Of a DNA stretch of 64,000 bases, positions 6,066 through 63,795 are shown one piece after another. This DNA is from Eledone cirrhosa (taxonomy: Eukaryota): assembly GCA_964016885.1 (NCBI GenBank), contig OZ024740.1, forward strand, positions 377,208,001-377,272,000. Reading direction: 5' to 3'. The notes below the pieces were generated by a model. The model had not been told where the DNA came from. It saw only the letters and a list, made by a program, of their open reading frames with translations, and made no database searches. Within the stretch, counting starts at the first letter, position 1. Each line of letters starts with the position of its first letter. A program made the translations under genes and the position numbers.

Positions 6066-6111
<46 letters not shown>

Positions 6112-6159
6112 TATAAGTTAAAACAATGAAATAAAAAATCAAGTCATTAGAGTTATACT

Positions 6160-6299
6160 TCACTGCTTTACGATCGTTTCTAGATGGTGATAATACATTG
6201 TATCTATACTCAGTTATTGATCTATATAAGTTTACAAACTATCAGATAGAGAGAATATTTACTTATACGCATATCACCAGCTGTTTTCAAAAGCAATAA
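6160..6299 (-). ncRNA. Variant hammerhead (U3-A8 core, long stem II) in the PLE-1 terminal repeat
   Basis: ttattgctt TTGAAAA cagctggtgata...tatcaccatcta GAAA cgatcg TA aagcagtga. Stem I 9 bp, palindromic stem III, GUA site. Confidence 0.7.
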
Positions 6300-7058
6300 T
6301 AATTTTATTCAATAATAATGTTACTGAGAATTAGTATCATGTCCATATTTGGAGGTAGTTGAAGAACTAACGAATCAAATTGCTTTTTTCATATGGTGTT
6401 AAGATGAAAAGTAATACACTTTAGTTGAGGTCATGACCTTTGAAAGGAATGGTTGAAAGGTGTTAGTAGAAATGGCATAAAAATCTATTAGGAAGGAAGG
6501 GGATTGTCAAACTGATAGTTGAATGTATCTTGTATAGTGAATTTAAAAGGAATGTCAAAATAAATGGTGATTAGTGTTGTATTGAGTTTTAAGGTGAATA
6601 TAAATTAATGTTATGGCTAGGAAAGATAGTATATTAAAAGATGAAAATTATAATAAGATAATGTCATATAGTAATGCGATAATATACAACATAACCAACA
6701 GAATATAGTACGGTGTGGTAAATTGCACTCAGTATAATATAACATATTATGCGCTCTAAAATATTACTAAGTATGTTTATGCATAAACAATCAAACTCAG
6801 ATAAGTACATGTTGGCATAATTAAAACACATACATTTCATAGTCTACAAAGTGCATATATTCACACCACATATAGAGAGAGGTACAGTTATATTGATATC
6901 TAACCAAAATATACATACGTGCAAATAGATGCAAACCTAAATACACATCCACACGCATGCATATAATCATATATATACATATCCATACATAGCTATAGCC
7001 ACACATACACATCTATACCCCCATATATACATATACATATACAGATACATACACATAT

Positions 7059-7137
<79 letters not shown>

Positions 7138-7235
7138 TATATACATACATATATACATGGACATACATACATATATACATACACATATACATATATATAT
7201 ACATATACATACACACACATGTATATACATATACA

Positions 7236-7274
<39 letters not shown>

Positions 7275-7429
7275 CACATACATATATATATACACACCTA
7301 TATATATACATATATATACACATATACATACATATACATATACACACACATACACATACATACACAAGCATATACATATATACACATATACACATACATA
7401 AACATATATATATATATATACATATACAT

Positions 7430-7492
<63 letters not shown>

Positions 7493-7495
<3 letters not shown>

Positions 7496-8140
7496 TAAAT
7501 CATGTCCTTAGAATTATAAGATAAAATATATACTATTTCCTCTTCTTATTAGCATAATTAACCATATAAAAATCAATTAGACCAAGCTATAAGAAGAAAG
7601 GCTCTTATGAAGAAATCTCCGACAAATAACCGAAAGTGGCCTCTTCGCGGTGGCCCCAATAGAGTATTTATCCAACATTTCGACAGCATGTAGAAACTGA
7701 CTAAATATATCATCAACCATACACAATTAGGTGTAAAATTAAACTTAGAAGAAATGTGTACATACCGTAATTATATCTCTACCATGGTTTCATCCGTATT
7801 TTTAGACATCCAAATAATAGGAATGTCTTGAGTTAGGATTCATCAGGAGACAAACTCAAAATCAGACATCTAGTTTTCCGCGAAGAGGCCACTTTCGGTT
7901 ATTTGTCGGAGATTTCTTCATAAGAGCCTTTCTTCTTATAGCTTGGTCTAATTGATTTTTTATATGGTTAATTATGCTAATTAGAAGAGGAAATAGTATA
8001 TATTTTATCTAATAATTCTAAGGACATGATTTATGATATATTGCTCTGATTATTTAATTTATTAATTCTTCATAGAGCTTAAAAGTAACCGGTTGCAACA
8101 TATATATATCTATAACTTTATGTATATGTAAACCTTTATA
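7493..8140. mobile_element. Non-coding hammerhead-bearing element (family D) inserted in the PLE-1 3' UTR microsatellite
   Basis: 7493-7650 is repeated inverted at about 7878-8040. Same family as 44360-45228. Confidence 0.8.
7774..7852 (-). ncRNA. Type I hammerhead ribozyme with extended stem II
   Basis: tgtctc CTGATGA atcc...agacatt/gatgtct...ggat GAAA ccatgg TA gagata. Confidence 0.85.
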
Positions 8141-10842
8141 TATATATATATATATACACACACATAAATATATTTCCACATCATACATAGATGTTTATTT
8201 TCACTCATGCAATTACGGGTGGCTGTGTATCTTGTTGCCTTTAGTCATTAACGCATAAATCTAAGGAAGCTAAAACATTAAAAGGCAAAAATAAGCATGA
8301 AAGCATATAATTGGGGGAAAGAGGTACTAATAAATGTTATTCTATACGGAATTATAGTGAGTTGCTATTTAGAATATTTAATTAGGTTTATAGTATTTAA
8401 TTAGATTTATAGTATTTAAATGTTTTTCGTATACGGTGATTACAGTCTATGATCAAATCCTGTCTTTTATTTAATAAATCGTCCTTAGATTTAGTAATTT
8501 CCAAGATCTCTCCTGAACATAATCCGCATTCCCTCCTGTTTCCAAGATATGGAGTTTTTTGTAGAATGGTGTTCCACGATAAATTAAAATCTATTTTCTT
8601 CTTTTTATAATTATTTACCGCTTCAGCTAAAGATGTGGTATTGCTAGATTTGTATTGTTGAAACTACTAGAGTGTGCATAAACTATTTTCTTAAATGTGT
8701 TTGATGTAGATCCTATATATGTTTTGTTGGAGTCTGTAGTAGACACAGTGCATTTATATACTACATTATTAATCAAACAGTTTCCATTTAAGGGGCAAAT
8801 GCTTCTATTTCTACAATTACAGGCATACGTAAGATGATTATACTATTCTCATTTATCCTTGAGCTATTCCTATTGTAATTAATGATAGCAGGAGAATGAA
8901 GGTTGCTTTGTGGATAGCTTAGTACTAGTGTTGTATTATAATTTTATGTTCTGTTGTGTTTGTGTTGGTGATTTGGGTGGTTGTGTTTTCTAGGTTTAAG
9001 GATTGTATTATTTGTCTTTTTAAAAGATTCAGCCCTATTTAAATTATGTTGCGGTGGTGTAGTCATATTATTTTTAAGTTTATAAATGTTGTAGTTGCTT
9101 ATGTTTTGTTTGAGGTTGTTTGATATAGAGTATTTAACAGTATATTTGTTAAATATTTGGTGGTATCTGTGGTTTGGTGGAAAATGTTTATGTAGTATTT
9201 CAAAGAATATTTTGGGTATTTGTCCAAGAGTTTGCAGGTTGAAGGGTGCGTTGTACCATGTTATGTTTCTTTTGCGGTTTTTAGTTAAGTTTTTATTATC
9301 CCTTATATTATTGTGTTGTGCTCTAGAAGAGTTCCTATGGTTAGTGTCCTTAATTGTGAAATTTGGTAAATCATCGTGGCTGTATTTGGTGTTATTTTTG
9401 GGTAGATTATGAGATTTTGAGAGCTTGGTATTCATATGTGGGTTGATAAACATTGGTCATAGATCGTGTAGTAATAGTTGTTGTGGTTTTTCGGTTGTTT
9501 GGTGTAATAGGAATAACCACTTTAAGTATTTGTTTCAATGGTATTTTTTGGTGTTTGTAGTTTTTGTTAGGTTTTATGTTTTGGTCCATAGTAGTGTTGG
9601 GGATATATGGGATCTTTTCTTTATATCCACTTCTAGTTAAGGCCTCGTTGTAGAAGGGTGCATTATTATAAAATATATCTTCATTGGAAGATAATTTAGA
9701 AAGTCTAAGAGAAATGTTATATACTAAGTTCTTGAGTATAGAGCCTGGGTGGTTAGATCGTGAATGTACATAATGTAGATTCTGGTTAGGTTTGTAGTAT
9801 GGTTGATAAGTATTGTTATCTAACAATCTTAGCAATTCCAATATAGAGAAGAACAAAAAGCAAATTAGATAATTCCCCAAGGACAATTACAGCCTTAACA
9901 TCACTTTTGAAAACACTTCAAAAGTAGCTAATTTCCTTGATGTTACCTAAATCTCTCTAAGTATTCGTAGAGAGATTTAAGGTAACATCAAGGAAATTAG
10001 CTACTTTTGAAATGTTTTCAAAAGTGATGTTAAGGCTGTAATTGTCCTTGGGGAATTATCTAATTTGCTGTTTGTTCTTCTCTATATTGGAATTGCTAAG
10101 ATTGTTAGATAACAATAGACAATCATCCCGATAAAGACCACCTTTGAGGTGGGGAAAAAGTCATTAATGTTACAGAGGAGAAATAGTCCAACGACGTCTG
10201 TAACTTGAGCAGAGTCCATGGATCCCATCGTAATATCGAATAAGTTGTTATACGTATTTATTGTCCAATATTCATCTTGAAAGTTTAGTAAGGTTTTTCT
10301 AGCGTGCGTTATGATGTTGATTTCCTCAGTAGATAAATTCGATCTATTTCTGGCAAAGATTAGTGCTTTGTTTAAAAGAATTGGAGAAATCGAAGAATAG
10401 TAGGAATTTAATGTCGAATTTAATGAATGAAGCTGAGTTTTTATTCTCATTACTAGTAAACCATTCGATAACTTGGGAAGTGTTATCCCATAGTGGATGC
10501 GATACAAATGTTCTAATTTGCGGAATGATACGATCAACAATCTTTTTGCTGATATTACCGATATCAGATTTTGATGGGCATATCAGTCTAATAGATGGGT
10601 TCGAGTTCAAGTCAGATTTATGGTCTTTCAGGTTGAAGTGTGGGCTTTTAGGCATGAAAGGCTCAGTCCTATCTTCAATCTAGAACTTTTTTAATATATC
10701 ACATGATATGTTTACTATATCACATGATATGTTGTTGAAGGGGATTAGTGCGGTGGTGCATTTTGCTCCTTTAATATATTTTTCATAATTGATTATAATA
10801 TTTAGTTGAGCTCTTTTTTTTTTATCTAATTCCTGTATCACA

Positions 10843-11361
10843 ATGGAAAAACAATATTTGGATACTGCGTTGAAGAATATTCCAATTCCACCTAAAGATG
10901 AATATCTACTCTTACTCATACAAAGAACTAACCAATTTATTAGGAGAATGAGATGGAGGGCCTACCATTTTGACAACAAAACTAATACAAATGAAATGAA
11001 GTACCGCTATGGATTCAAAACATACAAAAATCCTCCTCATAATATTCAACTGGAAAATTTTGAGAGCGCCCTACTGAATTTGATTAAAAACATAAAGTTC
11101 AGAAAACACAAATCAGAATTCCAAAGGGGATTAGACTCTACCCTTCTACAACTGAAAAATTTAAAAAAGGCCCATGTCCATTCTGACAAAACTGGTAACT
11201 TGTACCATATGGATATCGATAAATATAACCAGTTCATATATAAAGAACTTAGAAAGAACTATAAGAAAGCAAATACCACCGCACTAACATCCTTGAACAA
11301 CATATCATGTGATATAGTAAAAAAGCTCCAGATTGAAGATAGGACAGCCTTTCACGCCTAA
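10843..11361 (+). pseudogene. Inverted N-terminal part of the PLE-1 ORF
   Basis: MEKQYLDTALKNIPIPP...RRMRWRAYHF...YGFKTYKNPP...DKTGNLY aligns with ORF 15855-16562. Confidence 0.85.
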
Positions 11362-11411
11362 AAGCCCACACTTCAACCTGAAAGACCATAAATCTGACTT
11401 TAATTAATTTA

Positions 11412-11551
11412 TTATTGCTTTTGAAAACAGCTGGGGATATGCATGTAAGTAAATATTCTCTCTATCTGATAGTTTGTAAACTTACATAGATCAATAACTG
11501 AGTATAGATACAATATATTATCACCATCTAGAAACGATCGTAAAGCAGTGA
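11412..11551 (+). ncRNA. Second copy of the U3-A8 hammerhead (PLE-1 inverted terminal repeat)
   Basis: Same core and stems as 6160-6299. Confidence 0.7.
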
Positions 11552-11727
11552 AGTATATCTCTAATGACTTGATTTTTTATTTCATTGTTTTAACTTATAT
11601 CAAGACTCTGTTTTCCTTTTAATGTTTTATTGTTTTCTGAGATTTATCTTAACCTACAACATTTTCAACATATGGATTACATTGAGTTCTTCATACAGAA
11701 TAGACCCCACAACTTACAGTGGATACC

Positions 11728-11819
<92 letters not shown>

Positions 11820-11958
11820 AATTGAAATACTAGAGTGTGTTGGAGTTAGACACTCTCTTCGTATTATAGAAATGACAGTAAAGGTATAGCTCAATGTAAT
11901 TAAACAGAGCCGAAGAATTATGAAAATATACCAAAGAAGCCTTCAATACATCAAAAGT

Positions 11959-12012
11959 CTTTATTAGCCAACAATGTTTCGTCCTATTAAGGACTCATCA
12001 GGGCAATTAAAG
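11959..12012 (-). ncRNA. Type I hammerhead ribozyme in the PLE-2 3' region
   Basis: ctttaattgcc CTGATGA gtcc-ttaata-ggac GAAA cattg TT ggctaataaag. Confidence 0.85.
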
Positions 12013-13843
12013 CTATATGAAGCACTATCAGCCAATACAAGCCGAAAACTCAGAAGAATATGGAGTGTACGTAGATTAAATCATAGGAAAATAATCGGGT
12101 AAAAATTATCAAGTAAAAAATTATCAAGTAAAAAATTATCAAGTGAAAATTGCTAAGGAAGTAAGTAACATTTTGAACCATATTACAAATATAGTCCAAT
12201 GCAAAAACTAGAGCTAAAACAGAGGTGGTGATATAGAGCGGGAATTATTGTACTATATATAATATAATATAATATAATATAATATAATATAATATAATAT
12301 AATATAATATAATATAATATAATATAATTAATGATGATAATAATAATAATGTTAAAAGGCCCAATATACATATATATATATATACATATGTACACTTATA
12401 TACATATATATCAATACACATGTCTATCAATAGAAGCACAAACTAACCCTTATTAAGAGTTTAAATATAAATAAGAATAATAAGAATAAAAATAAAAATA
12501 CAAATACAAATGAAAAATACAAATGAAAATAAAATTAAAATATAATACATAAAATATTTACAGTATAAAATGAAAAATAAATGATTAAAAGTAAGCATAA
12601 AATATATAATAAGCTATTTAATTATATAATAGATAATCTCCGGTTAATTTGCACAAACAATATAAATGTTACAATAACATTAAAATCACAATATTATAAT
12701 ATAATGGCATATAACTTAACAAATCATAGGTTTACAGTCAGGGTGAGAAAAGACATTGTACAGAACTAAATTATATTGGAAAAATTATGTTGGAAAAATA
12801 TCAAAACCATTGCAAGAAAATAGATCAAATTTCTATACAGTTGGCGTAAATAAATATTATCCAAACATTACAAGAATTATAAAAAATATAACATCTTACA
12901 GGATTTACAGAATTTAACATAACATAATGGTACATATAATAATCGGTAAATAATAATGATCAGTAGTACGTTTACAAAGAGTGGATTGATATAAAATTTC
13001 AATATAAAATATTGAACATAGTATAATATACATAATTACAAGGTTGGTGGAGAGACATTTGTGGATAAGTGAATGAGAGCCAGACAGACAGACTACGCAC
13101 GGTAGTATATATAAATTAATACAATCAACCGGAAATCGAAAAACAAAAAAACAAAAGTATTTACTTAGGTGTCGCATGCAGTTAAGTAACAAATTTTGGA
13201 AACAAACCCGGATAAATGACTAGAAAACCCTATTAAATTGATTAATATTGAAAGTAGTTAAAATACATAATAAGTCCATACAAAATTAGCTATGGTTTAA
13301 GTAATCAAAATCCCCGAATTTAAATATATCACTATAAAAATATATCTGGAAAAAAATGAAATATTCAACTATCAGTTGAATAACGTTATCTAATAAACAG
13401 ACTTTAAATAGAGTTACGGTAGGCCAATGGGGACAGAAAAAAAAGAAATGTATGGAGGATATGAAAGAGCATAAAATCGTAATCAACATACTGTATTATA
13501 CAATAGAAAGGAGCGTAAAAGGGAATTGGATATAATTATAGTATATTTGAAGGGGCGAGTGACAAGTATGTATGTGTGTGTGTGTGTGGGGGGTAGTTAT
13601 CCAAAGAAGAATCCAAATAAAATAAAATAGAATAATATAAAATAAAATAAAATATATAATCAGATATAAACTCATAAGGTGTTAATAGTGAAAATATAAT
13701 ATTTAAGAAGATAGAAATGGTATGGTAGCCAAAAGATTATGAAAGCTATAATGAAAAGCTGTCAAAAGCCAATGATAAAAATGATGATAATGATGGTGGT
13801 AAACATAATAAACCTTAACTAAAAAGATAAGGGAATGTAGCAG

Positions 13844-16532
13844 CTAATGGATACAATTTACACTACTAGAACCTTTAGGTTTATAATAAAAGTAAGAATT
13901 TGAAATGGCGTGGGGGCAAGAAGAGAATATCCCAGACTTTCTATTAAGTAAGGTTTCCCTAGAGAAAATTATAGAGTGGGTCTCAAGGATACAGAGATTG
14001 CAAAATTTAGTATGTGTTGAAAGGTTATTAGAGCGTGCTACTATACGCCAACTAAGGCTATATGGCATATTAGCCCCCTTAAGATCCCAGATATGGTGTG
14101 CTAAAGAAGTAGAATTCTTAAACTTAACATGTTTAAAATTAGAGATATGAGAATTAAACCTAGCCTTAAAAGTGTTAGATGTAGAGCCTATATACGTGTT
14201 ATTAAAAGAATTAGTTTTAACCACACAAGCATAAACGATGTTCTTAGAGAGGCAGTTACCGTTTAAAGGGCAGTTAGCACTCACTCTACAGTTACACTTC
14301 CGGGTGTTATTGATCGGCTGAAGTAGTGGTACATCGCACGTAGGATTACTATGAGATAAAGTCTGCTCTGGTGGTAAGGCATTTACGGATCTATTCTGAC
14401 TAACAGCACGTAGAGAGGAGTATCCATCCCTAATTTTCCCATTGTTAGTGCTAGCTAAATGAGAACTAATATTAGGGGTGGTAGAGAATGAAAGTTTAAT
14501 TACATTTTTATTAAAAATACTATGGTATTTATTAGTTGGAGGGAAGTTTTTCTCTAAGATAGAAAAGAAAGACCTAGGGATGTTAGTTACTACTTCCTGA
14601 TTATAAGGCGGGTTAAAATAAGCATTTAGTCTCCTTCTATTTTTATCCTTACCAACTCTACCGTTATCTATTGTCCCATTATTAAGATTTGGGTTACTAC
14701 AAGGATTAGTTAAAACCACATTACTAGAATCAGCCGAAACTCGATTAAGTCTCTTTCTGTTTCTACCTCTAGTATATCTGCCGCCAACTGGAATCATATC
14801 AAAAGGATTAGGGCCAATAATAGGATCAGTAGAAACAACATTATTAGAATTAGGTATATCAAAAGTATTACCAATGGGTGAGCGCTCAGAGGGCTCGACT
14901 TGATTCCTAGAAGTATTAGATTCTCTGCTACGAGTCCGGTGGCTTAACCCATGGATGGGTTCAGATACACCTATGTGATTTCTACGATTCTTATTCTTTC
15001 TACTCCCATTCATGGCCATATTATGGGATATTATGTTATTATTATTATAAGTAAGCGGAGACTTTCTAAGGTTACTATTATTATAATGTATTTTACCAGA
15101 GTAACCTGAGTTAGCTAGGGCATTATTATAGTACTCTGCATGTGCATTAAATGTTCCTATGTCCTTAGAGAGTCTGGAAATCCTATTAGATACACCATTA
15201 ATTATAGAGCGTATCATAGATTTGGGGTGGTTAGAATTTGGACTAACATAAGAGAGTATTTCATTAGGCTTATGGAAGGGTTTAAAACTATTAGTGACCA
15301 AGTCCAAAGTCACATCTAAAAAGTTGACCGCTCTATCGTTTCTATCTATCGTGATCGAAAGGTTATAGCTTTTTAAAAACTTATAAAGCTTCTTCTTATT
15401 ATGTTCGACGTTGTTGGTGCTAGAGTTAATCACAAACAATGCATCGTCACGATAAAGTCCGCCTTTAAGGTGCGGAAAAGTAACATATAGTTCATTTAGG
15501 AGGAACAACCCAACAAGATCAGTTACCTGGGCCGAATCACTCGAACCCATTGTAACGTCGAAATTATTGGGCGTGTTTTTACGGGTCCAAAAAGTATCCT
15601 CAAAATTAATGATAGTTCTACGGGCTGCTAGTATAATATCTACCTGTGATCGTGTAAGGCTGGACACTCTCATAGCCAACATTAAGGCTCTATTAAGGAG
15701 GATGGGTGAAATCGATGTGTAATAGGCATCAATATCGAACTGGATAAACTTACTAGATTCAAGTTTATTAATGCCAGAGAACCAATCTATAATCTCCTTA
15801 GTGTTCCCCCAAAGGTTAAAATTAACCTTCTCCCTAACATCTGGCATAATAAGGTCAAGGATTTTTTTTACTAATTATGGCTATGTCAGACTTAGAAGGA
15901 CAGATGAGTCTAACAGAGGGATTACTAATGAAGTCTACCTTATGATCCTTAAGAGTGAATCTCGGTTCTCTAGGGTAATATGGCTGGGTATACTTATCTA
16001 GGCCAAGATCCGAGACTATCTTAAGACCCTCACTATTGATATGGTTCAAATTATCCTGCGTAGTTTTTTTATAATTTCTATGCAGCTCCTTATAAATAAA
16101 ATCGCGGTAAGCGCTGTAATCCATAGAGTATAGATTCTTAGTCTTATCAGCCGGGACAAGAATAGACTTATTCGCACTAAAACCCTTAACAATATTTTTA
16201 GGTCTAGACTGGAACTTGTCAAACTTATTATAATTTCCATGTCTAGTATATGGCCTATACTTAATATTTTTGACAAGGGAAAGTAAGCCATTTTCAAAGT
16301 TATCTAGTAGTACATTATGTGGTGGGCTCTTATAAGTTTTGAAGCCAAAGTTATTGAAATGAGTTCTATGCTTGGGGTCAGTCCTATTCCTATTAATATC
16401 ATAGAGGAAAGCACGCCATCTAATCCTTTTTACGAAGGAGTTAACACTAGCAATTAATAGTTTTTCATAAGTATTTCTAGAGGGGATGGGAATATTCTTC
16501 AGAGATAAAGGCAGGTAACTCTTTGTTAGCAT
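13844..16532 (-). CDS. PLE reverse transcriptase / GIY-YIG endonuclease polyprotein, split by one frameshift in an A8 run at 15862-15869
   Basis: RT motifs FDIDAYY, VTMGS...DLVG, LYRDD, FLDVTL. C-terminus CNC...CPLNGNC...IVY...YIGST...FKARF...H...HIWDLK...CNLC...E...LLN...CPH. Removing one A gives SKKILDLIMPD, matching SKKIVDRIIPQ of PLE-1. Confidence 0.9.
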
Positions 16533-16719
16533 ACTGTCAGATATATATAAAGGCCAAAACACCAGTATAAAGGAGGAAGCTCAACCAATCGGGAGCAGTA
16601 ACAAGAATTGAAATACTAGAGTGTGTTGGAGTTAGACACTCTCTTCGTATTATAGAAATGACAGTAAAGGTATAGCTCAATGTAATTAAACAGAGCCGAA
16701 GAATATATTGTATATTTTC

Positions 16720-16901: not shown

Positions 16902-18439
16902 GTGTGTGTGTGTGTGTGTAATATCTATATATATATATACAGCTATACATACATATGTACTTAGAGGGAGACTTGTGTTTGTGTGTTTATACAAGTTCTT
17001 ATTGTTGTAGTTGTTTAACGTCAGGTCAGACTTAACTGAGCAAATCAGTGTTCAAAGATGTTTGGGCTGTTACCAATCAGTCATTGTCTTTTCAGATATG
17101 ATCTCTCTAAGTCTACATTGACAACGTGTCGTTTTTCTTTATAGCTGGGTACGATGTATGAGCGATTTTGTGTAGGTTATAAATAAAGTTTGATTAAATG
17201 GCCAGTCAATAAAATAAAATAAAATAAAATGAATATAAGAGGCCATCTACCTGAAATGTGTTATTTAGACTACCTATTATATAGAGTTTGTTGTAGTAGT
17301 GTAGTATTCACTAGATTAAATGTACGTTGTTTAATAAAAGTAATATTTTATGTCTTGGTGCCTCAGATCTTATTCCACTGGACCTGTCTTAAATGATATT
17401 TGTCATGTAAAATATTTCTCTGTGATTTATAATTTGTTATATTTCTCTCTAACATCCTCTCATTTTGTTTCTTCTATTCTTTTTTTCTTTCATTCGTTTT
17501 ATTTTTTCTTCCATTCATTTTATTATTATTATTATTTTTTTTTTTGTCTCGCAAACGTCTTTCACTCGTCTTTTCTACTTTCAATTCTTTTCCATTTACT
17601 ATATCATTTTCCTTTCCTTTTCCGTCATTCACTACTTTCTTGCTTCGTCTTCCCCCTACTCTAACTTACACCCCCCCCCCCCCGTCACTTTTTTGGCGTG
17701 TCATCTCTTTTTTTCCCTTTTCTCCAGCCAAGGACACTTTCTTTATAAATCCTTCTGATTTTCACTATCTCTCACATGCTCTCTCACTCACTCTCTCTGT
17801 CGTCTGCACACACTAACTCATTATATTTCGCTATATATATATATAAGAGTGGATGTGAGTATATATATATACGTTTGAATATGTATAATAAAGCCAAAAC
17901 AATGCAGGTATGGACATAGAAAAAAGAATGCAATTGCAAAAGATATTGTTGACAAATGGTCTTTTACCTTAGATTTATTTAAATGTCCTTAATTTTCGAG
18001 ATAATATCTCTTCTTCAGAGGGAAATAAAGGTCTCAAACCAGCGTTCTAAATATCTTACCAAGCCATGCTGACAGGAAATAGTATAGAGTATCTGTTCTA
18101 TCTCTAATGTCAAAGAGTTAAAATTAGGTGGATAAAGAGTAGTCTCCCTTTAAAAGGGCTTTGTTTAGGTTTTTTTATTTATTTTTTTTTTTTTTATATA
18201 CATGCCTGTTTAAGTGTGTGGGAGAATGCAAGAAGGTGTAAGTATGTGAGTGTGTGTGTGTGAGTGTGAGAAGATAAGTCTATTCGTAAATGTGGGAGAT
18301 AGGTGTTATCTGGTGTTAGAACTGGTTTTGTGTGTGTATGTGTGAGAGAGAATAAGTGGAGGTGTAAGCGTGTGTGTGTGTGCGTGCGCGTATGTGTGTG
18401 GGGGGTGTAAATATGGGGCTAGAAGCCCTATCAGGGTAA

Positions 18440-20070
18440 AGAGTTTTGCGTCATCTCTCAAGCCACATACAATAACATAGCCTTTGAACACCTAAGCGAC
18501 AATGAATTATACACAGAGATCCCGGACATGACTGCAGCCCAGATCGAAAAACAGACCAACTCCATTTGGTTCGATATCTGTAGGAGAAGACAACTCCCAA
18601 ATAAAGTTAAGCTCAACTACACCACTAGAAATAGCAGACTGTCCACTTTCTACCACCTCATCAAGACCCACAAGAATAGTACTAAGACGCAAATAAGACC
18701 CATCGTCTCTAGCATAGAAGGACCCCTATACAAAATTTCCTGGCTCCTCTCCCAGGTCCTCAAGCCTCTACTCTCCACCTTTCCCGGGCATGTCAGTAGC
18801 TCCGACGAAGTTACACGTAGACTACACCAACTCCAGCCAGAACAACTTAAACTAAGTAAATACGCTTTTAGCCTAGACGTTGTCTCCCTCTACAGTCCCC
18901 GCTCATCCAGCTGTCGATTTATTGACGGACTGCATGGTCGCAGAGGACATCCACTGCTACGGCCTCCACCCGACGGACATACACCAGCTTTTGTCCTTCA
19001 TAGTAGACAACACGTACTTCACCTTCCACCACCACACATACAGACAGACAACATGATTACCCATGGGATCCAGCCTATCGGGCCTGCTGGCCATCACCTA
19101 CATGAACCAGCTAGAATGCCGAGCCCTCAACACCTGCCACTCCCATGCCTCCTTCACCCGATATGTAGATGACATACTCATCCTTACATCATCCCGTGAG
19201 GAGGCAGATAAAATATACACAGCATTCTCCAGCATGGACGCCAGTATAAAGTTCAGCATGGAACACCCCGATGACCGCGGATCCCTATCCCTACTGGACT
19301 TCCAACTCAGGGTAACAGAGGAAGGCAACATCCACATCTGCTTCTATAAAAAAGCCGCCAGCAGGGACCTGTTCGTACATTTCAGATCAGCCCTCCCACT
19401 CGGTGCCAAGTTTGGATACATAAAGAACGAACTGGCACGTATCCGGAACAAATGCACCGACGCTAGAGACCGAGACACACACACCACACATTTCCTGGAA
19501 GTACTCAAACTGAACGGATACACGACATCCACCACAAACCGAGCCAGAAAGAACAGAGGACACCACACCCGAGGCACTAACACTTGCTTCCTGAAGCTCC
19601 CACACTTCAGTGAAGAAACAACAACAGCCATCCGCAGAGCCATCAGACGAGAGGGACTAGATATCCAACTGGCCCACTCAGGTCCTTCTCTACGCGGACA
19701 GCTAACGAAAAGACACTCCACCAGACATGACAACTGCTGCAGACTAGCCAACTGCCCCATCAACGACACAGACCTATGCCACCAGGCTTACGTCGTATAC
19801 AGACTAGAGTGTGACAAATGCAACAACTTCTACGTAGGTAGCACCACCAGACCACTCCACATAAGAATAAAAGAACACCTCAATACTAACGCTTCCTCAT
19901 TTAAGAAACACCTAGTTAAATGCAAAAACACCGACAAAACCATAACAGTTAGGATAGAAACTAAGGAAAGAAACCTCGGCAATCTTAGAATTAAGGAATC
20001 ACTAATTATAGATAAAACACAACCACCAATCAATAATAGACTAGAACTCAGCACCCAATTTATAACCTGA
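18440..20070 (+). pseudogene. PLE-3 RT plus GIY-YIG ORF, 5'-truncated and frameshifted near 18895
   Basis: LIKTHK, IRPIVS, SLDVVSLY, MGSSLS, RYVDD, LSLLDF, VVYRLECDKCNNFYVGSTTRPLHIRIKEH, KESLII...PPIN. Confidence 0.88.
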
Positions 20071-30559: not shown

Positions 30560-31211
30560 GGCGATATCCAATTTTAGCGGCCTAAATGCCGCTTACTTGC
30601 TGTAGTTGCTGCTTACTTCAATGTATGAGGCTATTCCAACAAATTTACATTCCCCTTTTTTTAGCCGTTAAAAGAAATATAGATTTATTTATTGTTTTTT
30701 TTTTTGCCATTTATTTGCCACTGGGGCATAGATTTCTTTATTTCCCCCTTTTTTGTTTGTTTGCTTGTTGTTTTTTTTTGCGATTTATTAGCCTTTTGGG
30801 GTCACACACACCCCAGTAGAAAGTGTGCGACCTTTCTGCCAGGGAACACAGAGAGAGGGGGGTGCTCCCTTCTTCTCTTACCTGTACAAGCCGATATAGA
30901 GAGATGGCCCACTTACACGGGCCATTATTGCTACTTTCACCCATCTTTCATGGAATTGGCTGGGACTGAGTGCGTTTTTCTCCACCTTGATCCTTCTTTC
31001 GAAGTGGTATCGGAAGAAGAGGACCATTTGTTGGCCGGCGACATATCCCCACAGCTTCCTCGTTGCAAACGCATCTGGGACATTTCTTTTCCAAGGGGTT
31101 TCCGTCCCGGAATCTGTGTCTGTAGAGCCTTTCCCGAACGGGCAGGGCCCCTCGGTATAATAGTAAGTATTAGTGGTTGTAATAAAAATGCAATAAAAAT
31201 GTAATAAATAC

Positions 31212-31347
31212 CTTCACTGATTTCTTTCCTTATATTATCAACAGAAGTTGGTATGTCACCCAAAGTTCGCTTTGTATGTTCCCGAATAGCAGTGAATTTT
31301 GATAAAACTGTTTCTAATTCCTTCTCCACAGTAAGACAAATATCCAT
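31212..31347 (-). pseudogene. RMND5: RMND5/GID2-like first coding exon copy
   Basis: MDICLTVEKELETVLSKF resembles the recalled RMND5A N-terminus MDQCVTVERELEKVLHKF. 136 nt ending at a phase-1 gaag|gtattt donor. Confidence 0.65.
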
Positions 31348-31514
31348 GTGTAGTCCAAAAAGATAAATCTTTAAAAAAATTATAATAATTCTTTATTATT
31401 ATTATTTCTGTAAATAATTATTTTTCTATATATCTCAAACCTTGCCAAACACCACATCTGTCCATCTGTAAATTTAAATGACTGTTCTTTCATACTTATC
31501 CTCTTCAACTACAC

Positions 31515-31650
31515 ATGGATATTTGTCTTACTGTGGAGAAGGAATTAGAAACAGTTTTATCAAAATTCACTGCTATTCGGGAACATACAAAGCGAACTTT
31601 GGGTGACATACCAACTTCTGTTGATAATATAAGGAAAGAAATCAGTGAAG
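31515..31650 (+). pseudogene. RMND5: RMND5/GID2-like first coding exon copy
   Basis: Inverted twin of 31212-31347 with the same protein and donor site. No downstream exons recognised. Confidence 0.65.
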
Positions 31651-32303
31651 GTATTTATTACATTTTGATTGCATTTTTATTACAACCACTAATACTTACT
31701 ATTATACCGAGGAGCCCTGCCCGTTCGGGAAAGGCTCTACAGACACGGATTCCGGGACGGAAACCCCTTGGAAAAGAAATGTCCCAGATGTGTTTGCAAC
31801 GAGGAAACTGTGGGGATATGTCGCCGGCCAACAAATGGTCCTCTTCTTCCGATACCACTTCGAAAGAAGGATCAAGGTGGAGAAAAACGCACTCAGTCCC
31901 AGCCAATTCCATGAAAGATGGGTGAAAGTAGCAATAATGGCCCGTGTAAGTGGGCCATCTCTCTATATCGGCTTGTACAGGTAAGAGAAGAAGGGAGCAC
32001 CCCCCCCCCCTCTCTGTGCTCCCTGGCAGAAAGGTCGCACACTTTCTACGGGGGTGTGTGTGACCCCAAAAGGCTAATAAATCGCAAAAAAAACAAACAA
32101 ACAAACAAAAAAGGGGCAAATAAAGAAATCTATGCCCCAGTGGCAAATAAATGGCAAAAAAAAAAACAATAAATAAATCTATATTTCTTTTAACGGCTAA
32201 AAAAAGGGGAATGTAAATTTGTTGGAATAGCCTCATACATTGAAGTAAGCAGCAACTACAGCAAGTAAGCGGCATTTAGGCCGCTAAAATTGGATATCGC
32301 CTA

Positions 32304-37480: not shown

Positions 37481-37511
<31 letters not shown>

Positions 37512-37516
<5 letters not shown>

Positions 37517-38973
37517 GACAAACATAGAATATTCGAAAATATTCTGTATGTTTATAATAAACATTTTGAAGACCCAATCGCTATAGAATAGAATACGTCA
37601 CGTATTACAATTTGAGATTCTCGATAAAAGCAAGGGAAGTAATCTACGCGTTTCATTCTTATTAGAAATCATCAGGATTACATATCCAATGCTTTTATCG
37701 AGAACGACACAGCTAGAGACTTATAGAATACTTAGCTGTGTACAGGAACTGGTTTGAAAGAGCGGTAGCCGGTCCGGCAGAAATTAGAATTTGGATTTAA
37801 TGCTCTGAAATAGCGATATATATGTGAAGACAAACATAGAATATTCGAAAATATTCTGTATGTTTATAATAAACATTTTGAAGACCCAATCGCTATAGAA
37901 TAGAATACGTCACGTATTACAATTTGAGATTCTCGATAAAAGCAAGGGAAGTAATCTACGCGTTTCATTCTTATTAGAAATCATCAGGATTACATATCCA
38001 ATGCTTTTATTGAGAACGACACAGCTAGAGACTTATAGAATACTTAGCTGTGTACAGGAACTGGTTTGAAAGAACGGTAGCCGGTCCGGCAGAAATTAGA
38101 ATTTGGATTTAATGCTCTGAAATAGCGATATATATGTGAAGACAAACATAGAATATTCGAAAATATTCTGTATGTTTATAATAAACATTTTGAAGACCCA
38201 ATCGCTATAGAATAGAATACGTCACGTATTACAATTTGAGATTCTCGATAAAAGCAAGGGAAGTAATCTACGCGTTTCATTCTTATGAGAAATCATCAGG
38301 ATTACATATCCAATGCTTTTATCGAGAACGACACAGCTAGAGACTTATAGAATACTTAGCTGTGTACAGGAACTGGTTTGAAAGAGCGGTAGCCGGTCCG
38401 GCAGAAATTAGAATTTGGATTTAATGCTCTGAAATAGCGATATATATGTGAAGACAAACATAGAATATTCGAAAATATTCTGTATGTTTATAATAGATTA
38501 CTTCCCTTGCTTTTATCGAGAATCTCAAATTGTAATACGTGACGTATTCTATTCTATAGCGATTGGGTCTTCAAAATGTTTATTATAAACATACAGAATA
38601 TTTTCGAATATTCTATGTTTGTCTTCACATATATATCGCTATTTCAGAGCATTAAATCCAAATTCTAATTTCTGCCGGACCGGCTACCACTCTTTCAAAC
38701 CAGTTCCTGTACACAGCTAAGTATTCTATAAGTCTCTAGCTGTGTCGTTCTCGATAAAAGCATTGGATATGTAATCCTGATGATTTCTAATAAGAATGAA
38801 ACGCGTAGATTACTTCCCTTGCTTTTATCGAGAATCTCAAATTGTAATACGTGACGTATTCTATTCTATAGCGATTGGGTCTTCAAAATGTTTATTATAA
38901 ACATACAGAATATTTTCGAATATTCTATGTTTGTCTTCACATATATATTGCTATTTCAGAGCATTAAATCCAA
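37512..38973. repeat. Tandem array of 312-bp structured units (3.1 copies) followed by about 1.5 inverted copies (family E2)
   Basis: gaagacaaacatagaat at 37514, 37826, 38138 and 38450. Strand switch at about 38495. (TA)n flanks. Confidence 0.92.
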
Positions 38974-39005
<32 letters not shown>

Positions 39006-51194: not shown

Positions 51195-53895
51195 ATGATG
51201 GCTGCCCCCTCGTTATCGAGTATGGCCATTGTACGAGAAAAAAAAAAAATATATATATATATATACATATATACATACATATACATACATACATATACAT
51301 ATATATATATTAATAACAATAATGATAATAATAATAACAACAATAATAATAACGATAACAACAACAATAATGATATACATATACATATATATATACACAC
51401 ACATAAACATATCTATACACACACACACACGATAACAACTAACAGCGCTGCGTTCGAATGTAGCTTTTTAGCCCAGCCAATGATCTAAAATGTCTTGCAC
51501 AGAGTCGGCAACCAAAACATTCACTGAGAATAGCCGGCTGTGGTTGGAGTTCATGTACTTTTGCATGTCGCTTAAGCCCTCCTGCTGATTTACATTCTCT
51601 ACCACATGCTTGGCAAGCATGATGAGTAGCATCTCCAACAGCAGCCTGGTAGTCAACCACTGGTCTTACTTTATGACTGCGAAGATGACTTTCGAGTCTA
51701 GCTTTGCTTAGGCAGAGTCTCGCACAGACGCTGCATGTCAGCACCATAGTAGCACCCTCTCCGTCTGGAACTGCAACAGCAATGCCCTTCCTCACATCCC
51801 GCTTTACTTTCTCGTATGCGATTCGAGATGCCTCAAAGGCAACTTTTCCCTCATATACAGTCTTTCTCCATTTATTACGATCAGCAGCAATATTTTCCCA
51901 TGTATCAGCAGAGATGTTAGCGTCTTTCAAAGAGGCTTTCAAGGAATCCTTATACCTCTTTTTTGGTTTATGTGGCGGTCGTTTTCCTTTAACTAACTCT
52001 CCATAAAAGAGTTGTTTTGGGTATTCTAGAATCCTTCATCCTGGCAAGGTGACCACTCCAACGGAGTCGTTGCTTAAGCACAAGAGCTTCTATACTGTCA
52101 CACATAGAGCTTTCCAAAATCTCGACATCACTGATGTGGTCCCTCCAGTGAATGCCATGGATCCGTCTGAAACACATCTGATGGAAATGCTCCAATTGCT
52201 TAAGGTGGTGTCGTATGTGACCCAGGTCTCGCAGGCATAAAGAAGACAAGAAAGCACACATGCCTTGTACACCTTTAAAAAAAATATAGATCTTCTTGCA
52301 TATGTCTCGCACGAAATAAAAAAAATAAAAAAAAAAATAAAAAATTAATCCCTTGCTTCCCCCACCCCCCTCCCCGCCTCCCCCAGCCGCCTAGCTTTCC
52401 GAAAGCATCACTTGCTTTCCTAATCGTAAGTGAGATTTCACTATCAAGGTTGCTGTATCGATTGACAGTGCTTCCCAAGTAGACAAACTGATCAACCACT
52501 CCGAGTCGTTTACCATACACATAGATATTTGGTTCAGTGTACTGCTTACCAGGGGCAGGTTGGTACATGACGACGGTTTTCTTGAGACTTACAGTCAATC
52601 CTAGAGCAGTGCAAGCGTCAGAAAATGCATTCAAAATGTGCTGCATATCACTCTCTGTGTGCGCTACAAGATCGCAATCATCTGCATACAAGAGGTCTCT
52701 TATGATTGATGTAAATACTTTTGTCTTTGCAGCAAAGCGCCTGGTGTTAAATATGCTGCCTGAGGTTCGATATCGGATGTAAACACAATGCTCGCAATTC
52801 CTGAATGCAATACAGAAAACCATTGCAAAGTATATGGTAAACAGGGTCGGTGCTGGAGTATCCCCCTGTTTCACTCCATTTTTTACTGAGATAGGCTCCG
52901 ATATGTTACCTCCGACATTAACCCAAGCCTTAATGTAGTCATGGAAAGACCTAACTAAAGCAAGGAAATTATCAGGGCAACCAACCAAGTTTCTGGAGAA
53001 CCTACAATAATGCATTTCTGTTAACAGTATCGAAAGCTTTTGTCAGATCGACAAAAACCTGATACAGATCCAAACCTTGTTCCATGCACTTCTCTTGGAG
53101 CTGTCTAGCTGAGAAGATCATATCAGTAGTGCCGCGTCCAGCACGAAAACCAGATTGACTTTCAGGAAGAACACAATCTGCAATGTGTGTCAGCAGACGG
53201 TCCAGAAGCACCCTACATAAAACTTTCCCTACGACAGAAAGCAATGATATACCTCTGTAGTTCCCACAATCATTCCTGTTTTCCTTTCCCTTCTACAAGA
53301 CCACCATTACTGCATCTCTCCAGTCCTCAGCTACGGATTCATTAGCCCATATCCTGCCAAACAAAGAGTGAAGATGTTGCAGGAGTCTCTCACCACCATA
53401 TTGTAGGAGCTCAGCATGTATGCTATCCATACCTGGAGATCTTCCACTGTTCAGCTTCGAGATAGCCACTGCAACCTCCACAAGCGTCGGAGGTTCTGCG
53501 AGAGCTACTTTCACAGGATTTTTTGGAATGAGATTAAGGAAATCTTCACTGACGACAGACGGCTGATTCAAAAGATCATCAAAGTGCTCTCGCCACCTTC
53601 GTAGATTTCCCTGTGAGTCACGAAGAAGTTCTTTGCCATCCTTGCTGCGAAGCTGTGTCACCAGAGAGGAAGACGGTCCATAAACCTCACGCAAGGGACT
53701 GTACAACAGCTTTGTGTTATTGGAATCTGACGCAGTTTGTATCTCACCAGGCCTTCTCACTCCACCACTGATCCTTCATCTGAGAAAGAGTCCGCCTAAC
53801 ACGTGATTTTACATCCTTGAGTTCCTTATGCAACGTATTCCTCTCCTGTGGTTTTGCCGTCAAGTAGCGTGACAGAGCACGTCTCTTATCTTGTG
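51195..53895 (-). mobile_element. 5'-truncated RTE LINE (degenerate ORF with C-terminal C2H2 fingers)
   Basis: SPGMDSI, LPESQSGFRAGRGTTDMIF, FVDLTKAFD, GVKQGD, LLYADD, RLRWSGH. Highly similar to 61330-63939. Confidence 0.92.
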
Positions 53896-53920
53896 CAGAT
53901 ACCCGTAATATGTGATGGAT

Positions 53921-53952
<32 letters not shown>

Positions 53953-55280
53953 CACTTCCCTCATATATATATATATGTATATATACACTCCCCTCATATA
54001 TATATATGTACATATATATATATGTGTGTGTATATATGTGTATATATATATATGTATATATATATGTGTGTATTTATGTATATATAAGTGTATATATGTA
54101 TATATATATATGTGTGTATGTATATATATATATGTGTATATATATATATTTATATGTATGTGTATTTATATGTATACACACACACACATATATATATATA
54201 CATATATATACATACACATATATATACATATACACATATATATACATATATACACTTATATATACATAAATACACACATATATACATATATATATATATA
54301 CACACATATATACATACACACACATATATATATATATAGGGAGAGTGTATATACATATATATATATGAGGGGTGTGTATATATATATATACACACACACA
54401 CACAATCCATCACATATTACGGGTATCTGCACAAAACATTGAGGAACCTGCAGCTTCAGTAGAAGACATTTACACAAAATATGATCATGCAGTAAGACCG
54501 AACGCACAACCACTTAGTGGGAAGCAAACTTCTTAACAACACAGTACCAATTTTTTATACTTTTAAAAATACTTCATTTATTTTATTCAATCAACACTGG
54601 TATATGTCTGATTCTGATTGTATTGAACCTGATGTAACGAAAGTTAAATACCGAATATGTGACATGAAGTGTAGAATAGTGAACATTGATCTAGTAATAC
54701 GGTTTGCAGCCGCTCTGCTAATTGATAAGCCAATCATACTACAAAACTCTATGTAATGAGCTTTAAAACGAAATGTTCCACTTATCACGCTGTATTCCTT
54801 AAGAAATAAATGAACGTTTGATAATATCATTATTCACCCTCTATGATATAATAAAACATTTTGTTATTGTTGGCAAATCATTACAACATCAGGCAAGATA
54901 TCTCGCAGTTGTTTCTCCGTCTCATTAGGTTTGGGGTCGATAAAATAATGTACCAGTGAAGGATTATGATTGATATAATCAACTAGCCTAGCCCTCCCCA
55001 CCTATATAAGTAATTATTCATATTCTAACAGTTTGTGAGTGCACAGGTGTGTCCATATCTGTATGTGTGTGCTTAGATATTTTTTATCTATCATTGAAAA
55101 GTACTTAACCCACATATGTACGTGCGGTATATACACAGCATAGAATATATTGACAAATGAATGAATAAATAATTCATGATTCTTTTATTTGTTTCTATAT
55201 TCTACTGTGCGTGAGCTTGTGCGGGCACGTGTGTGTTTCTGTACGTGTGTGGATGCGTTCATATATAATTTACGCAGCAG

Positions 55281-57756
<2,476 letters not shown>

Positions 57757-57896
57757 TGTCAAGTAAATATGTTTTGAAACAACGAGCGAGGTTGAAATTA
57801 GAAATAGAAGCTTTCGCTATATTTTTGACTAAAGATATTTTGGCGTGAAAGTGGGGTTTAGAATCCTCTAAAAAATGGAAAAAGATGGGTATTGAC

Positions 57897-57944
<48 letters not shown>

Positions 57945-58000
57945 GTGAGGTTTTTTTTACAAAATGAAAAATAACCGAGGTGTCCTACACGAGTGGAAGT

Positions 58001-58366
<366 letters not shown>

Positions 58367-59590
58367 CCTAAGAGATTGTTTTGGTAAAAACAGGAGCAAG
58401 CAGGAGAAAGCTCTCAACATTCGTAGTTTGTAGTTACGATGGAGATTCAGTATAATAGTAACATTAAGAAAGATATTGATGTTACATAAATCACATACAT
58501 CAGCATCTTCTTAATGTTCTTATATATATATATATGGGCACAAACCAAATTTAGCACTCGATATAATCACCTGGAAATACTATGTAATCCATGGATTATT
58601 CGTATATATCCAATTATTAGTGTAAATCCAGGAAGATAGTTTCATCAGATGAATTGAATATGGGATTTCAGTTTAATACAAGCAAAATATTTCAATATAC
58701 CATCCGTTTATTTCGTAAAGACTGATTTTATATCAATCCTGCTCGCAGCTGTAGTGGTATGTAATCATTTACACATTGAAAGTTGCATAAGTTATTACAG
58801 CTCGACTCAAAGAATTAAGTCGCGTCATTAGATATAAACGGGACAAGATTTCAGAATCAATATGTCGCTGAGTATAACAACAATGTCGTTCTTTATCCCG
58901 AAAAATATTTTTCACTTGCAACATAAAAATTAAGAAATAAATAAAGAGTAAAAGAGAAAAGAATTAAAAGAAAAAAAGAGAAAAATGACAAGAAGCATGA
59001 CAAAAGAGGGTATATATTTTAGATTGTGTCAAGTCGGGTTGCATGCCTGACACACCCATGCAACAATGGGTGTATATTGTTGTGTGTGGCGTCAGAATTT
59101 GAAAAGGGAAATAAAAACAAATATACATATAAAACAGTAATAATAATAATAAATAAAAACAAAATATGAAACTTAAAAGTGCGATTGGCAGATAATTCAA
59201 TTTAATTATCTAAGTCACTGCGTATTATAAATCTCAGTTAGCTTGTTACAGAACTATCTTATCTTTTGCTTTCCAAAAGTCGAGAGTTAAATAGTCCAGA
59301 AGGGAAAAAGCCTTAATGATGCCACAAAGTCTAGTGTACTTTCATAATGGTCAATTGCTGGCGGGTACGTTGATAAGTTTGCTATAACTCTCCGTTCCAC
59401 ATTGAAGGTGATTAAATATATATTACTTAATATACAAGGATATCAGTGTTATGAAAAGTTAAGAGTTGGAAAATTTAATAAATTTGTAAAATTATAAAAT
59501 TTGAAAAACAAGCAGTAGTAATGGCAGACAGTCCGAGTCTGTCAGTGGTGATGGTGTGTGAGTGTAGTTGAGGTGAGGTGCATCGTGTTG

Positions 59591-59649
<59 letters not shown>

Positions 59650-59780
59650 GTGTGTATATATATATATGTGTATATATATATATGTGTATGTGTATATATA
59701 TATATATGTGTGTATGTATATATATATATATATATATGTGAGTTTTTATAAGTGAGTTTTTTTTTTTTGTTTTTTTTTTT

Positions 59781-60081
59781 GCGCGGGGATATAGAAATAA
59801 TCGGGCTGGATGCCCGATCGCGCAGTTAAACCACTGGGAGCGAAGAAACCCTAGCCCTTGTCAGGGCATTCTTCTAGGAGAAGGCATCTCAGGAAACTGG
59901 GTTAACTCCGACATAAAACCTGCGGCTCAGTAGTTACCGATGATGTTGATCTTTTCTTCTTTTCGGGTTATAGCTACTGTCGCTCAGAGAGTGGGATTGG
60001 CTCAGTGCACAGTCTCTCCTCACTTTAAAAATATTCGTCACGCACAGGCATTGCACGAGTGCATTAATAATTATTAATAGT

Positions 60082-60122
<41 letters not shown>

Positions 60123-63754: not shown

Positions 63755-63795
<41 letters not shown>

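What the first reader, a model, noticed from the sequence alone, without database searches (positions are those of the whole stretch)
6160..6299. PLE-1 terminal repeat holds a U3-A8 hammerhead with a roughly 100-nt stem II domain
Seen in both copies (6160-6299 minus, 11412-11551 plus): 9-bp stem I, UUGAAAA, a stem II base agcugguGAUA/UAUCaccaucu enclosing further hairpins (guaagu/acuuac in the + copy), GAAA, palindromic cgaucg, and a GUA site. Inference: an autonomous Naiad-type element uses the variant core, linking the U3-A8 small elements to PLEs. The insert may be a protein-binding or regulatory module.
Basis: partly seen in the sequence, partly recalled or inferred. Interest (0 to 1): 0.75.

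Follow-up and report, generated by a model that had tools for sequence, protein, structure and literature searches.

The report
Long-armed hammerhead of Hydra-type retrotransposon
This is a hammerhead RNA motif, predicted to cut itself only in pairs, at the end of a Hydra-type (not Naiad) jumping gene; its core variant is already published, but its second arm is predicted to fold as a roughly 100-base hairpin, kept by matched mutations in three related families, that likely serves as a binding site for the element's own protein.

Summary
The motif is real in both copies: 9-bp stem I, U3-A8 core, 103-nt stem II domain, palindromic stem III, GUA site. 0 of 2000 shuffles matched; a 17-base anchor occurs 1,929 times in the genome.

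The carrier is a Hydra-clade Penelope-like element (C-terminal GIY-YIG, RWR, DKT, CxCX5C), not a Naiad, and the window's copy is broken. U3-A8 in Penelope-like elements was published in 2014, so that link is not new.

The long arm holds up. Two sister families here have the canonical C3-G8 core and 100-116-nt arms. Across 13 copies, 8 of 24 pairs change on both sides, including core pair 3-8. The arm is predicted as one irregular rod with a near-invariant apical internal loop; the GUAAGU/ACUUAC helix competes mainly in the two mutated window copies. Published Hydra hammerheads have 3-7 bp in stem II, and Rfam misses this one.

Likely mechanism: slow cleavage as a dimer, with the rod as a protein-binding site (inferred). 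No cleavage or RNA data. This scan has already noted long-armed Hydra hammerheads here and in other genomes. New variant of a known kind.

The parts
6160..6299 (-). Hammerhead copy A (type I, U3-A8): stem I 6299-6291 with 6168-6160, core 6290-6284, stem II domain 6283-6181, GAA 6180-6178, stem III palindrome 6177-6170, predicted cut after A17 at 6169
11412..11551 (+). Hammerhead copy B (type I, U3-A8); predicted cut after A17 at 11542; two private changes (11435, 11515) weaken stem II
11428..11530 (+). 103-nt stem II domain, predicted as one irregular rod; its basal helix covaries across three families
11467..11492 (+). Apical block of the rod: UGAUAnUUUG ... UACAUAGAUC, a 4x3 internal loop between two short helices, near-invariant in three families while the terminal loop varies in length
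6219..6244 (-). Same apical block in copy A, with one private C-to-U change
6111..6312 (-). Terminal repeat arm A, ending at the family's short 3' end and running into (TA)n
11399..11731 (+). Terminal repeat arm B with the family's long 3' end; holds the tail motif at 11669-11693 shared by the three families; runs into (TA)n
8400..10736 (-). Broken Hydra-clade ORF, residues 161-830 of the intact sister protein: RT core, CxCX5C linker, C-terminal GIY-YIG at 8833-8400; frameshifts, stops and a local inversion near 9811-10117
10756..11404 (+). Inverted 5' part of the same element: 5' end, start codon, residues 8-205 with RWR and DKT motifs; joined directly to arm B
6313..8399 (-). Long 3' untranslated region of the element, interrupted by a foreign foldback insertion at about 7488-8173 and a (TA)n-rich tract

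Best explanation
This is a type I hammerhead ribozyme motif in the terminal repeat of a Hydra-clade Penelope-like retrotransposon, with a lineage-specific U3-A8 core and a stem II predicted to extend into a rod of about 100 nt; it likely cuts after GUA only as a dimer, and the rod likely serves as a binding site for the element's own reverse transcriptase. SHOWN: the motif, its copy number, its place at the 3' end of a C-terminal-endonuclease element, direct repeats 4.7-6.7 kb apart around the ORF in full-length copies, covariation of stem I, core pair 3-8 and the stem II base, and a near-invariant apical block. PREDICTED: the rod fold; a strained monomer stem III (gain under 1 kcal/mol) against an 8-bp intermolecular duplex (-10 kcal/mol). 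INFERRED: two repeats on one transcript, or on tandem copies, pair through ACGAUCGU and cleave slowly or with protein help, trimming element RNA from read-through transcripts; the rod, whose last base lies about 70 or 200 nt upstream of the two 3' ends, gives the RT a handle on its own RNA. U3-A8 is most likely a derived compensatory switch made after the arm had grown. The two window copies are on opposite strands and probably inert. Odds by step: true hammerhead motif under selection 0.93; cleaves as dimer or with protein 0.75; rod selected as a structure 0.85; rod binds the element's protein 0.4.
For: Non-random match. 1,929 exact anchors, reversed control 0. 62 of 73 full-length copies keep U3-U4-G5-A6-N7-A8-A9 and none has C3-G8; among five subfamilies only N7, the free position, changes in the core. 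In a core-pattern search, 100 of the first 100 listed of 1,072 matches have U3 and 99 have A8. Sister families F2 and F3 have C3-G8, a rewritten but paired stem I, and arms of 100-116 nt. On 13 copies: 97.1% of cells paired and 8 of 24 pairs changed on both sides; slid controls gave 31-54% paired and 0-3 such pairs. RNAalifold independently finds stem I and the stem II base. Rod z-scores: -2.08 to -3.35 in 4 F1 copies, -2.19 and -1.60 in 2 F2 copies, -5.99 and -6.85 in 2 F3 copies. Upstream 3' UTR identity between families is only 32-38%, against 45-63% for the arm and 86-90% for GAAA to stem I. Dimer energetics. Dimer dependence, low activity and protein assistance of PLE hammerheads are published (PMC4209133; PMC11167929).
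Against: No cleavage, probing or binding data. The 8 double changes reflect about three lineages, and four of them sit on the single split between F1 and F2/F3; 'further pair types' did not exceed shuffles (14 against 15.7). Within F1 alone, retention of rod stability is not significant (38-66 of 400 random mutants did as well; Fisher p=0.079), and 7 of 13 variable paired columns break a pair in some subfamily, all in the middle of the rod. The apical block is invariant, so it gives no covariation evidence. Position 10.1-11.1 is a C-A mismatch where G-C is usual, and no loop II lies near the core for tertiary contacts, so cleavage may be very slow. In an Anolis PLE, hammerhead mutants did not affect insertion in vitro. 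Nothing tested here points to the RT rather than a host protein.
Confidence: 0.55

Rival explanations
1. The hammerhead is real but the long arm is a tolerated passenger: an old fold-back duplication inside stem II, of the kind these elements make often, kept paired only so that it does not disturb the core. It has no function of its own.
For: Fold-back junctions are common in these copies. The arm tolerates 4-nt and 10-nt length changes. The middle of the rod covaries weakly in F1. A neighbouring Hydra family works with a 14-nt stem II domain.
Against: The apical block keeps 18 of 20 positions identical in 16 of 16 aligned sequences from three families whose upstream UTRs are 32-38% identical. 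Arm length stays at 99-116 nt in nearly all copies seen, and no short-arm form occurred among 73 full F1 copies.
Confidence: 0.2
2. The arm acts in translation or RNA stability: in tandem copies the repeat lies about 300 nt upstream of the start codon, and the ribozyme fold or its cut allows cap-independent initiation of the ORF.
For: Layout hammerhead - tail - ORF in L206-L208 and L242. Type I hammerheads in viral 5' UTRs promote cap-independent translation (PMC13725137, passages).
Against: Cleavage would leave the arm on the upstream product, away from the ORF. 'Long helix II' in that paper means 6 bp. No RNA evidence here.
Confidence: 0.1
3. The conserved apical sequences are DNA-level promoter elements of the terminal repeat, and the rod is a side effect of AT-rich symmetric sequence.
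For: PLE terminal repeats carry promoters (review PMC6765202, passages). The apical block shows no covariation.
Against: The spacer between the two conserved blocks ranges from 6 to about 30 nt, which suits a hairpin loop better than a composite DNA site. The basal helix shows G-C, G-U and A-U series that need RNA pairing.
Confidence: 0.1
4. The U3-A8, C-A-mismatch form is a catalytically dead relic kept only as a structural or dimerisation signal.
For: Mismatch at 10.1-11.1. No complete ORF in 4 of 4 F1 copies read, while the C3-G8 family F3 has many 830-codon frames.
Against: Both core bases changed together and stayed fixed through five subfamilies while only N7 moved. The C-A mismatch is shared with the young F3 family. 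U3-A8 ribozymes are reported active in vitro (PMC3088659, passage).
Confidence: 0.05

Closest known systems
Hydra-clade C-terminal EN+ Penelope-like elements and their hammerheads (Craig et al. 2021, PMC8557442; read: passages, section 11, supplement parts 1-2 and searched rows)
   Same: RWR/RWK and DKT motifs, CxCX5C linker, C-terminal GIY-YIG without CCHH, CxxC and CxH, (TA)n targets, inverted truncated arm, type I hammerhead near the 3' end with short palindromic stem III and an extra base opposite an extra base at the foot of stem II.
   Different: All 26 Hydra rows of File S2 have a C3-G8 core, a 3-7 bp stem II and a 3-10 nt loop. Here the core is U3-A8 and the domain 103-107 nt. Full-length units are 4.7-6.7 kb against 'generally under 3 kb'.
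U3-A8 minimal hammerheads of Cercyon PLEs in Schistosoma mansoni (Cervera and de la Pena 2014, PMC4209133; read: parts 1-2 of 4 and passages)
   Same: U3-A8 core covariation in a PLE terminal repeat; about 1,300 hits there; predicted dimeric action.
   Different: Helix II of 7-8 bp and helix I of 4-5 bp there; another PLE clade. The switch here is most likely independent, since both sister families keep C3-G8.
Poseidon element of Anolis carolinensis (PMC11167929; read: passages)
   Same: PLE hammerhead near the start of the ORF in tandem copies; a genomic 'tail' marking RT start sites, like the two 3' ends seen here.
   Different: No long stem II is described in the passages read. Its cleavage was shown to need the protein, which is untested here.
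Naiad elements (Craig et al. 2021)
   Same: (TA)n insertion, inverted and tandem structures.
   Different: Naiads have an N-terminal endonuclease, DKA, a CxC motif and IFD, and lack canonical hammerheads. This element has the opposite domain order and DKT.
Rfam Hammerhead_1 (RF00163)
   Same: Same topology and core order.
   Different: The model gives no match to copy B at E up to 10, while it finds the short neighbour at 12007-11963 with 29.1 bits.

Membership tests
Type I hammerhead ribozyme | Core YUGANRA ... GAAA ... UH in type I order with a complementary 3-8 pair | tested here: met
   U3-A8 in 62 of 73 full copies; 3-8 is U-A in 7 and C-G in 6 of 13 aligned copies
Type I hammerhead ribozyme | Stems I and II paired and covarying | tested here: met
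   2 of 9 stem I pairs and 5 of 7 stem II base pairs change on both sides
Type I hammerhead ribozyme | Purine-pyrimidine pair at 10.1-11.1 | tested here: not met
   C-A in all three families. Hydra hammerheads often have a U-U mismatch there, and U-U is a known active variant; I found no report on C-A
Type I hammerhead ribozyme | Self-cleavage after H17 | not testable with these tools
   No assay possible; no RNA run listed
Dimeric PLE-type hammerhead | Short palindromic stem III able to pair between two copies | tested here: met
   ACGAUCGU in all three families; duplex -10 kcal/mol; monomer gain 0.2-0.7 kcal/mol
Hydra clade of PLEs | Single ORF with RT and C-terminal GIY-YIG | tested here: met
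   Window pieces map in order on the intact 830-codon sister frame, endonuclease last
Hydra clade of PLEs | RWK-type and DKT motifs | tested here: met
   RMRWR and SDKTGN at 10810-11361; same motifs in Hydra-1_Obim, compared by eye
Hydra clade of PLEs | CxCX5C linker; CxxC and CxH in the endonuclease; no CCHH | tested here: met
   CNCRNRSIC, ECGLC and CNH in the window and in the sister ORF
Hydra clade of PLEs | Insertion into (TA)n | tested here: met
   Both arms and the displayed family copies end in (TA)n
Hydra clade of PLEs | RT phylogeny places it in the clade | not tested
   Reference proteins were seen only in a supplement and were not available to the tree tools
Naiad clade of PLEs | N-terminal GIY-YIG endonuclease | tested here: not met
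   The endonuclease is at residues 686-830, after RT
Naiad clade of PLEs | DKA motif; no canonical hammerhead | tested here: not met
   DKT and a type I hammerhead are present

The most novel reading that the evidence does not exclude
A clade of Hydra-type retrotransposons has grafted a 100-nt protein-docking rod with a new conserved internal-loop motif onto hammerhead stem II, making a ribozyme that the element's own reverse transcriptase binds and switches on, coupling cleavage to cis-preferred copying. Thousands of such ribozymes per genome are invisible to current descriptors, and the sister families give a natural C3-G8 versus U3-A8 comparison on the same scaffold.
Probability: 0.3. Interest if true: 0.72.

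Novelty: new variant of a known kind. Interest (0 to 1): 0.42.

Why it matters
What hammerheads do for Penelope-like elements is an open question: activity in vitro is low, and in one element cleavage was not needed for insertion. A selected 100-nt domain on stem II suggests that the ribozyme region has a second, binding role. The young sister family F3, with many intact ORFs, makes this testable with purified protein. The U3-A8 core alone, and the link to PLEs, add little.

Tried and rejected
Naiad assignment: rejected.
Multi-hairpin insert with GUAAGU/ACUUAC as the family fold: rejected as the main fold, with one double change in its favour.
Rfam: the whole-window scan showed no hammerhead in the 150 rows listed of 252; the 681-nt rescan missed copy B.
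Pfam gave nothing for the Hydra proteins: no family above cut-off for the 4 Hydra pieces among 6 proteins scanned.
Expression and cleavage ends: no RNA holder listed; this is no evidence either way. Both read-laying runs used contigs only. Runs X8 and X10 (organism E) match stem I, a C3-G8 core, the first arm bases and the tail, but no piece spans the arm, so a long arm in that organism is not shown.
5' truncation hot spot at the ribozyme: 18 of 99 copies end 100-130 nt upstream of GAAA, against 18 in the first 100 nt; suggestive only.
A-to-I editing signature in the rod: none; private A>G 9 against T>C 11, p=0.83.
Within-F1 selection tests: not significant.
Intact F1 ORF: none in 4 copies read, but only 106 of 47,801 candidates were scored.
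Literature: 8 searches found no description of a PLE hammerhead with a stem II near 100 nt. Lunse et al. on PLE hammerhead dimers is not held in the library and was seen only as a citation; it, unread supplements of PMC4209133 and subscription papers may bear on novelty.

Full report
1. Observation. Both stretches hold the motif as described and differ at 5 of 140 bases. In copy B the parts are stem I 11412-11420 with 11543-11551 (9 bp), core UUGAAAA, a 103-nt domain, GAA, the palindrome ACGAUCGU and A17 at 11542. A descriptor that allows up to 250 nt in stem II matched 0 of 2000 shuffles of the 790-nt region at three stringencies. The copies lie in a 202-nt inverted repeat, 6111-6312 and 11399-11600, 95.5% identical.

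2. The carrier. The genome is 3.0 Gb in 1,796 contigs; the organism was not established. The insertion spans about 6111-11731 and runs into (TA)n at both ends. A minus arm carries residues 161-830 of the element protein in broken pieces, then a long 3' UTR and copy A. A plus arm carries the element's 5' end and residues 8-205, joined directly to copy B. The protein has RWR, DKT, a CxCX5C linker, a C-terminal GIY-YIG, CxxC and CxH. These are the features given for the Hydra clade (PMC8557442 section 11), and the N-terminal part resembles Hydra-1_Obim by eye. Naiads have the endonuclease at the N-terminus. No RT tree was built.

3. The family (F1). A 17-base anchor occurs 1,929 times, the reversed control 0 times. 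I fetched 99 of the first 100 listed places: 73 copies reach the core and 26 are 5'-truncated. 62 of the 73 have an intact U3...A8-A9 core, 11 carry scattered changes, and none has C3-G8. The domain is 107 nt in 46 copies, 103 nt in 19 and 99-113 nt in 8. The copies fall into five subfamilies, 1.9-3.5% from their own majority sequence; in the core only N7 changes between them. That anchor fixes the 3' half by design. An independent search on the 5' half gave 1,072 matches, with U3 in 100 and A8 in 99 of the first 100 listed. Copies end at two places, about 58 and 190 nt after the predicted cut, so inserted copies come from RNA that is uncut at the downstream ribozyme or rejoined (inference). 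One F1 copy shows direct repeats 4.7 kb apart around the ORF (L242). None of 4 F1 copies read had a complete frame.

4. Sister families. A search on the shared tail motif led to F2 (1,509 candidates) and F3 (753 candidates). Both have the canonical core CUGAAGA, the same stem III palindrome, a rewritten but paired stem I, and arms of about 103 nt (F2) and 101-116 nt (F3 lineage). F3 is young: 3 of 3 full-length copies fetched have an open 830-codon frame between repeats 6.1-6.7 kb apart, 70% identical to the window's N-terminal piece. With both sisters and all 26 published Hydra rows at C3-G8, U3-A8 is most simply a derived switch in F1, made after the arm had grown (inference by parsimony).

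5. Covariation. On 13 real copies from the three families, 97.1% of cells pair and 8 of 24 pairs change on both sides: two in stem I, the 3-8 core pair, and five of seven at the stem II base. Slid controls give 31-54% paired. RNAalifold recovers stem I and the stem II base unprompted. Caveats: the structure was drawn from these sequences, the changes reflect about three lineages, and pair-type diversity did not exceed shuffles. Between families the upstream UTR is 32-38% identical, the arm 45-63%, and GAAA to stem I 86-90%.

6. Shape of the arm. Family copies fold as one irregular rod, with z from -1.60 to -6.85 in 8 of 8 tested. The window copies are weaker, -1.50 and -0.16, because of private changes. 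The tip carries UGAUAnUUUG and UACAUAGAUC, with 18 of 20 positions identical in all 16 aligned sequences, forming a 4x3 internal loop under a terminal loop of variable length. Within F1 alone, selection on the middle of the rod is not shown: 38-66 of 400 random mutants kept equal stability, and p=0.079 against private mutations. All five variable paired columns of the basal helix keep pairing.

7. Mechanism. Stem III adds under 1 kcal/mol as a monomer, but the palindrome forms an 8-bp duplex of -10 kcal/mol between two copies. This matches the dimeric, slow hammerheads described for PLEs (PMC4209133). In an Anolis element cleavage needed the element protein (PMC11167929, passages). I infer slow or protein-assisted cleavage between two repeats of one transcript or of tandem copies. 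The rod has a fixed, sequence-specific internal loop a short way upstream of the 3' ends, which fits a handle for the RT; this step is a guess at about 0.4, and earlier scan notes proposed the same. Rivals are a tolerated fold-back, a role in translation (PMC13725137, passages), a DNA promoter motif, and a dead relic. The two window copies face opposite ways, so they cannot dimerise in cis on one strand, and the ORF is broken.

8. What is known. U3-A8 was reported as natural covariation in 2011, with activity in vitro cited (PMC3088659, passages), and in Cercyon PLEs in 2014. Hydra hammerheads in File S2 have 3-7 bp stems II with 3-10 nt loops; the longest domain in that table, about 52 nt, is in a spike-moss element. 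Eight paper searches found no PLE hammerhead with a stem II near 100 nt; one key paper on PLE hammerhead dimers could not be read. A 2026 preprint on retrozymes and PLEs was read in part 1 of 5 only. Rfam misses copy B and finds a short neighbour. This scan has already noted long-armed Hydra hammerheads in this and other genomes; its notes on permuted Naiad hammerheads concern a different motif.

9. Verdict. Real, selected, and a new variant of a known kind. The Naiad link is wrong and the core variant is published. The value lies in the conserved 100-nt arm and in the C3-G8 versus U3-A8 sister pair. Interest 0.42.

Noticed in passing
window 11817-16704, minus strand: A second Hydra-clade element (ORF pieces 16580-15855 and 15874-13844, 39% identical to F3 over 670 columns) bounded by a 102-nt exact direct repeat, with a canonical short C3-G8 hammerhead at 12007-11963.
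   Followed up: partly
window 44719 minus and about 7845 minus: A third hammerhead family, C3-G8, with a 50-nt stem II domain (z -2.25) and palindrome ACCAUGGU; one copy sits in a foldback inserted into this element's 3' UTR.
   Followed up: partly
L206-L208; G000:C6:49529791-49557560: Family F3 is very young, with many 830-codon frames, including five hits about 6.6 kb apart on C6 that look like a tandem array. A good candidate for biochemistry.
   Followed up: partly
window 11669-11731: The tail after the ribozyme holds a motif shared by all three families (3,835 and 8,362 pattern matches), also matched by contigs of runs X8 and X10, followed by a possible small hairpin. It may mark a promoter or RT start signal.
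   Followed up: partly
L122 and L134: 2 of 30 tail-anchored copies begin within about 5 nt after the predicted cleavage site. Too few to read as cleaved templates.
   Followed up: no
window 18423-20070, plus strand: Another Penelope-like element with RVT_1 and C-terminal GIY-YIG Pfam hits, of a different clade from the Hydra elements.
   Followed up: no
window 30857-32005, 37504-38975, 51375-63794: Several long inverted repeats of 450-650 nt at 95-100% identity, probably further fold-back insertions.
   Followed up: no
loci L004, L027, L037, L038, L043, L050: Further hammerhead-like matches with 26-44 nt stem II domains and AT-only stem III palindromes recur in unrelated flanks.
   Followed up: no
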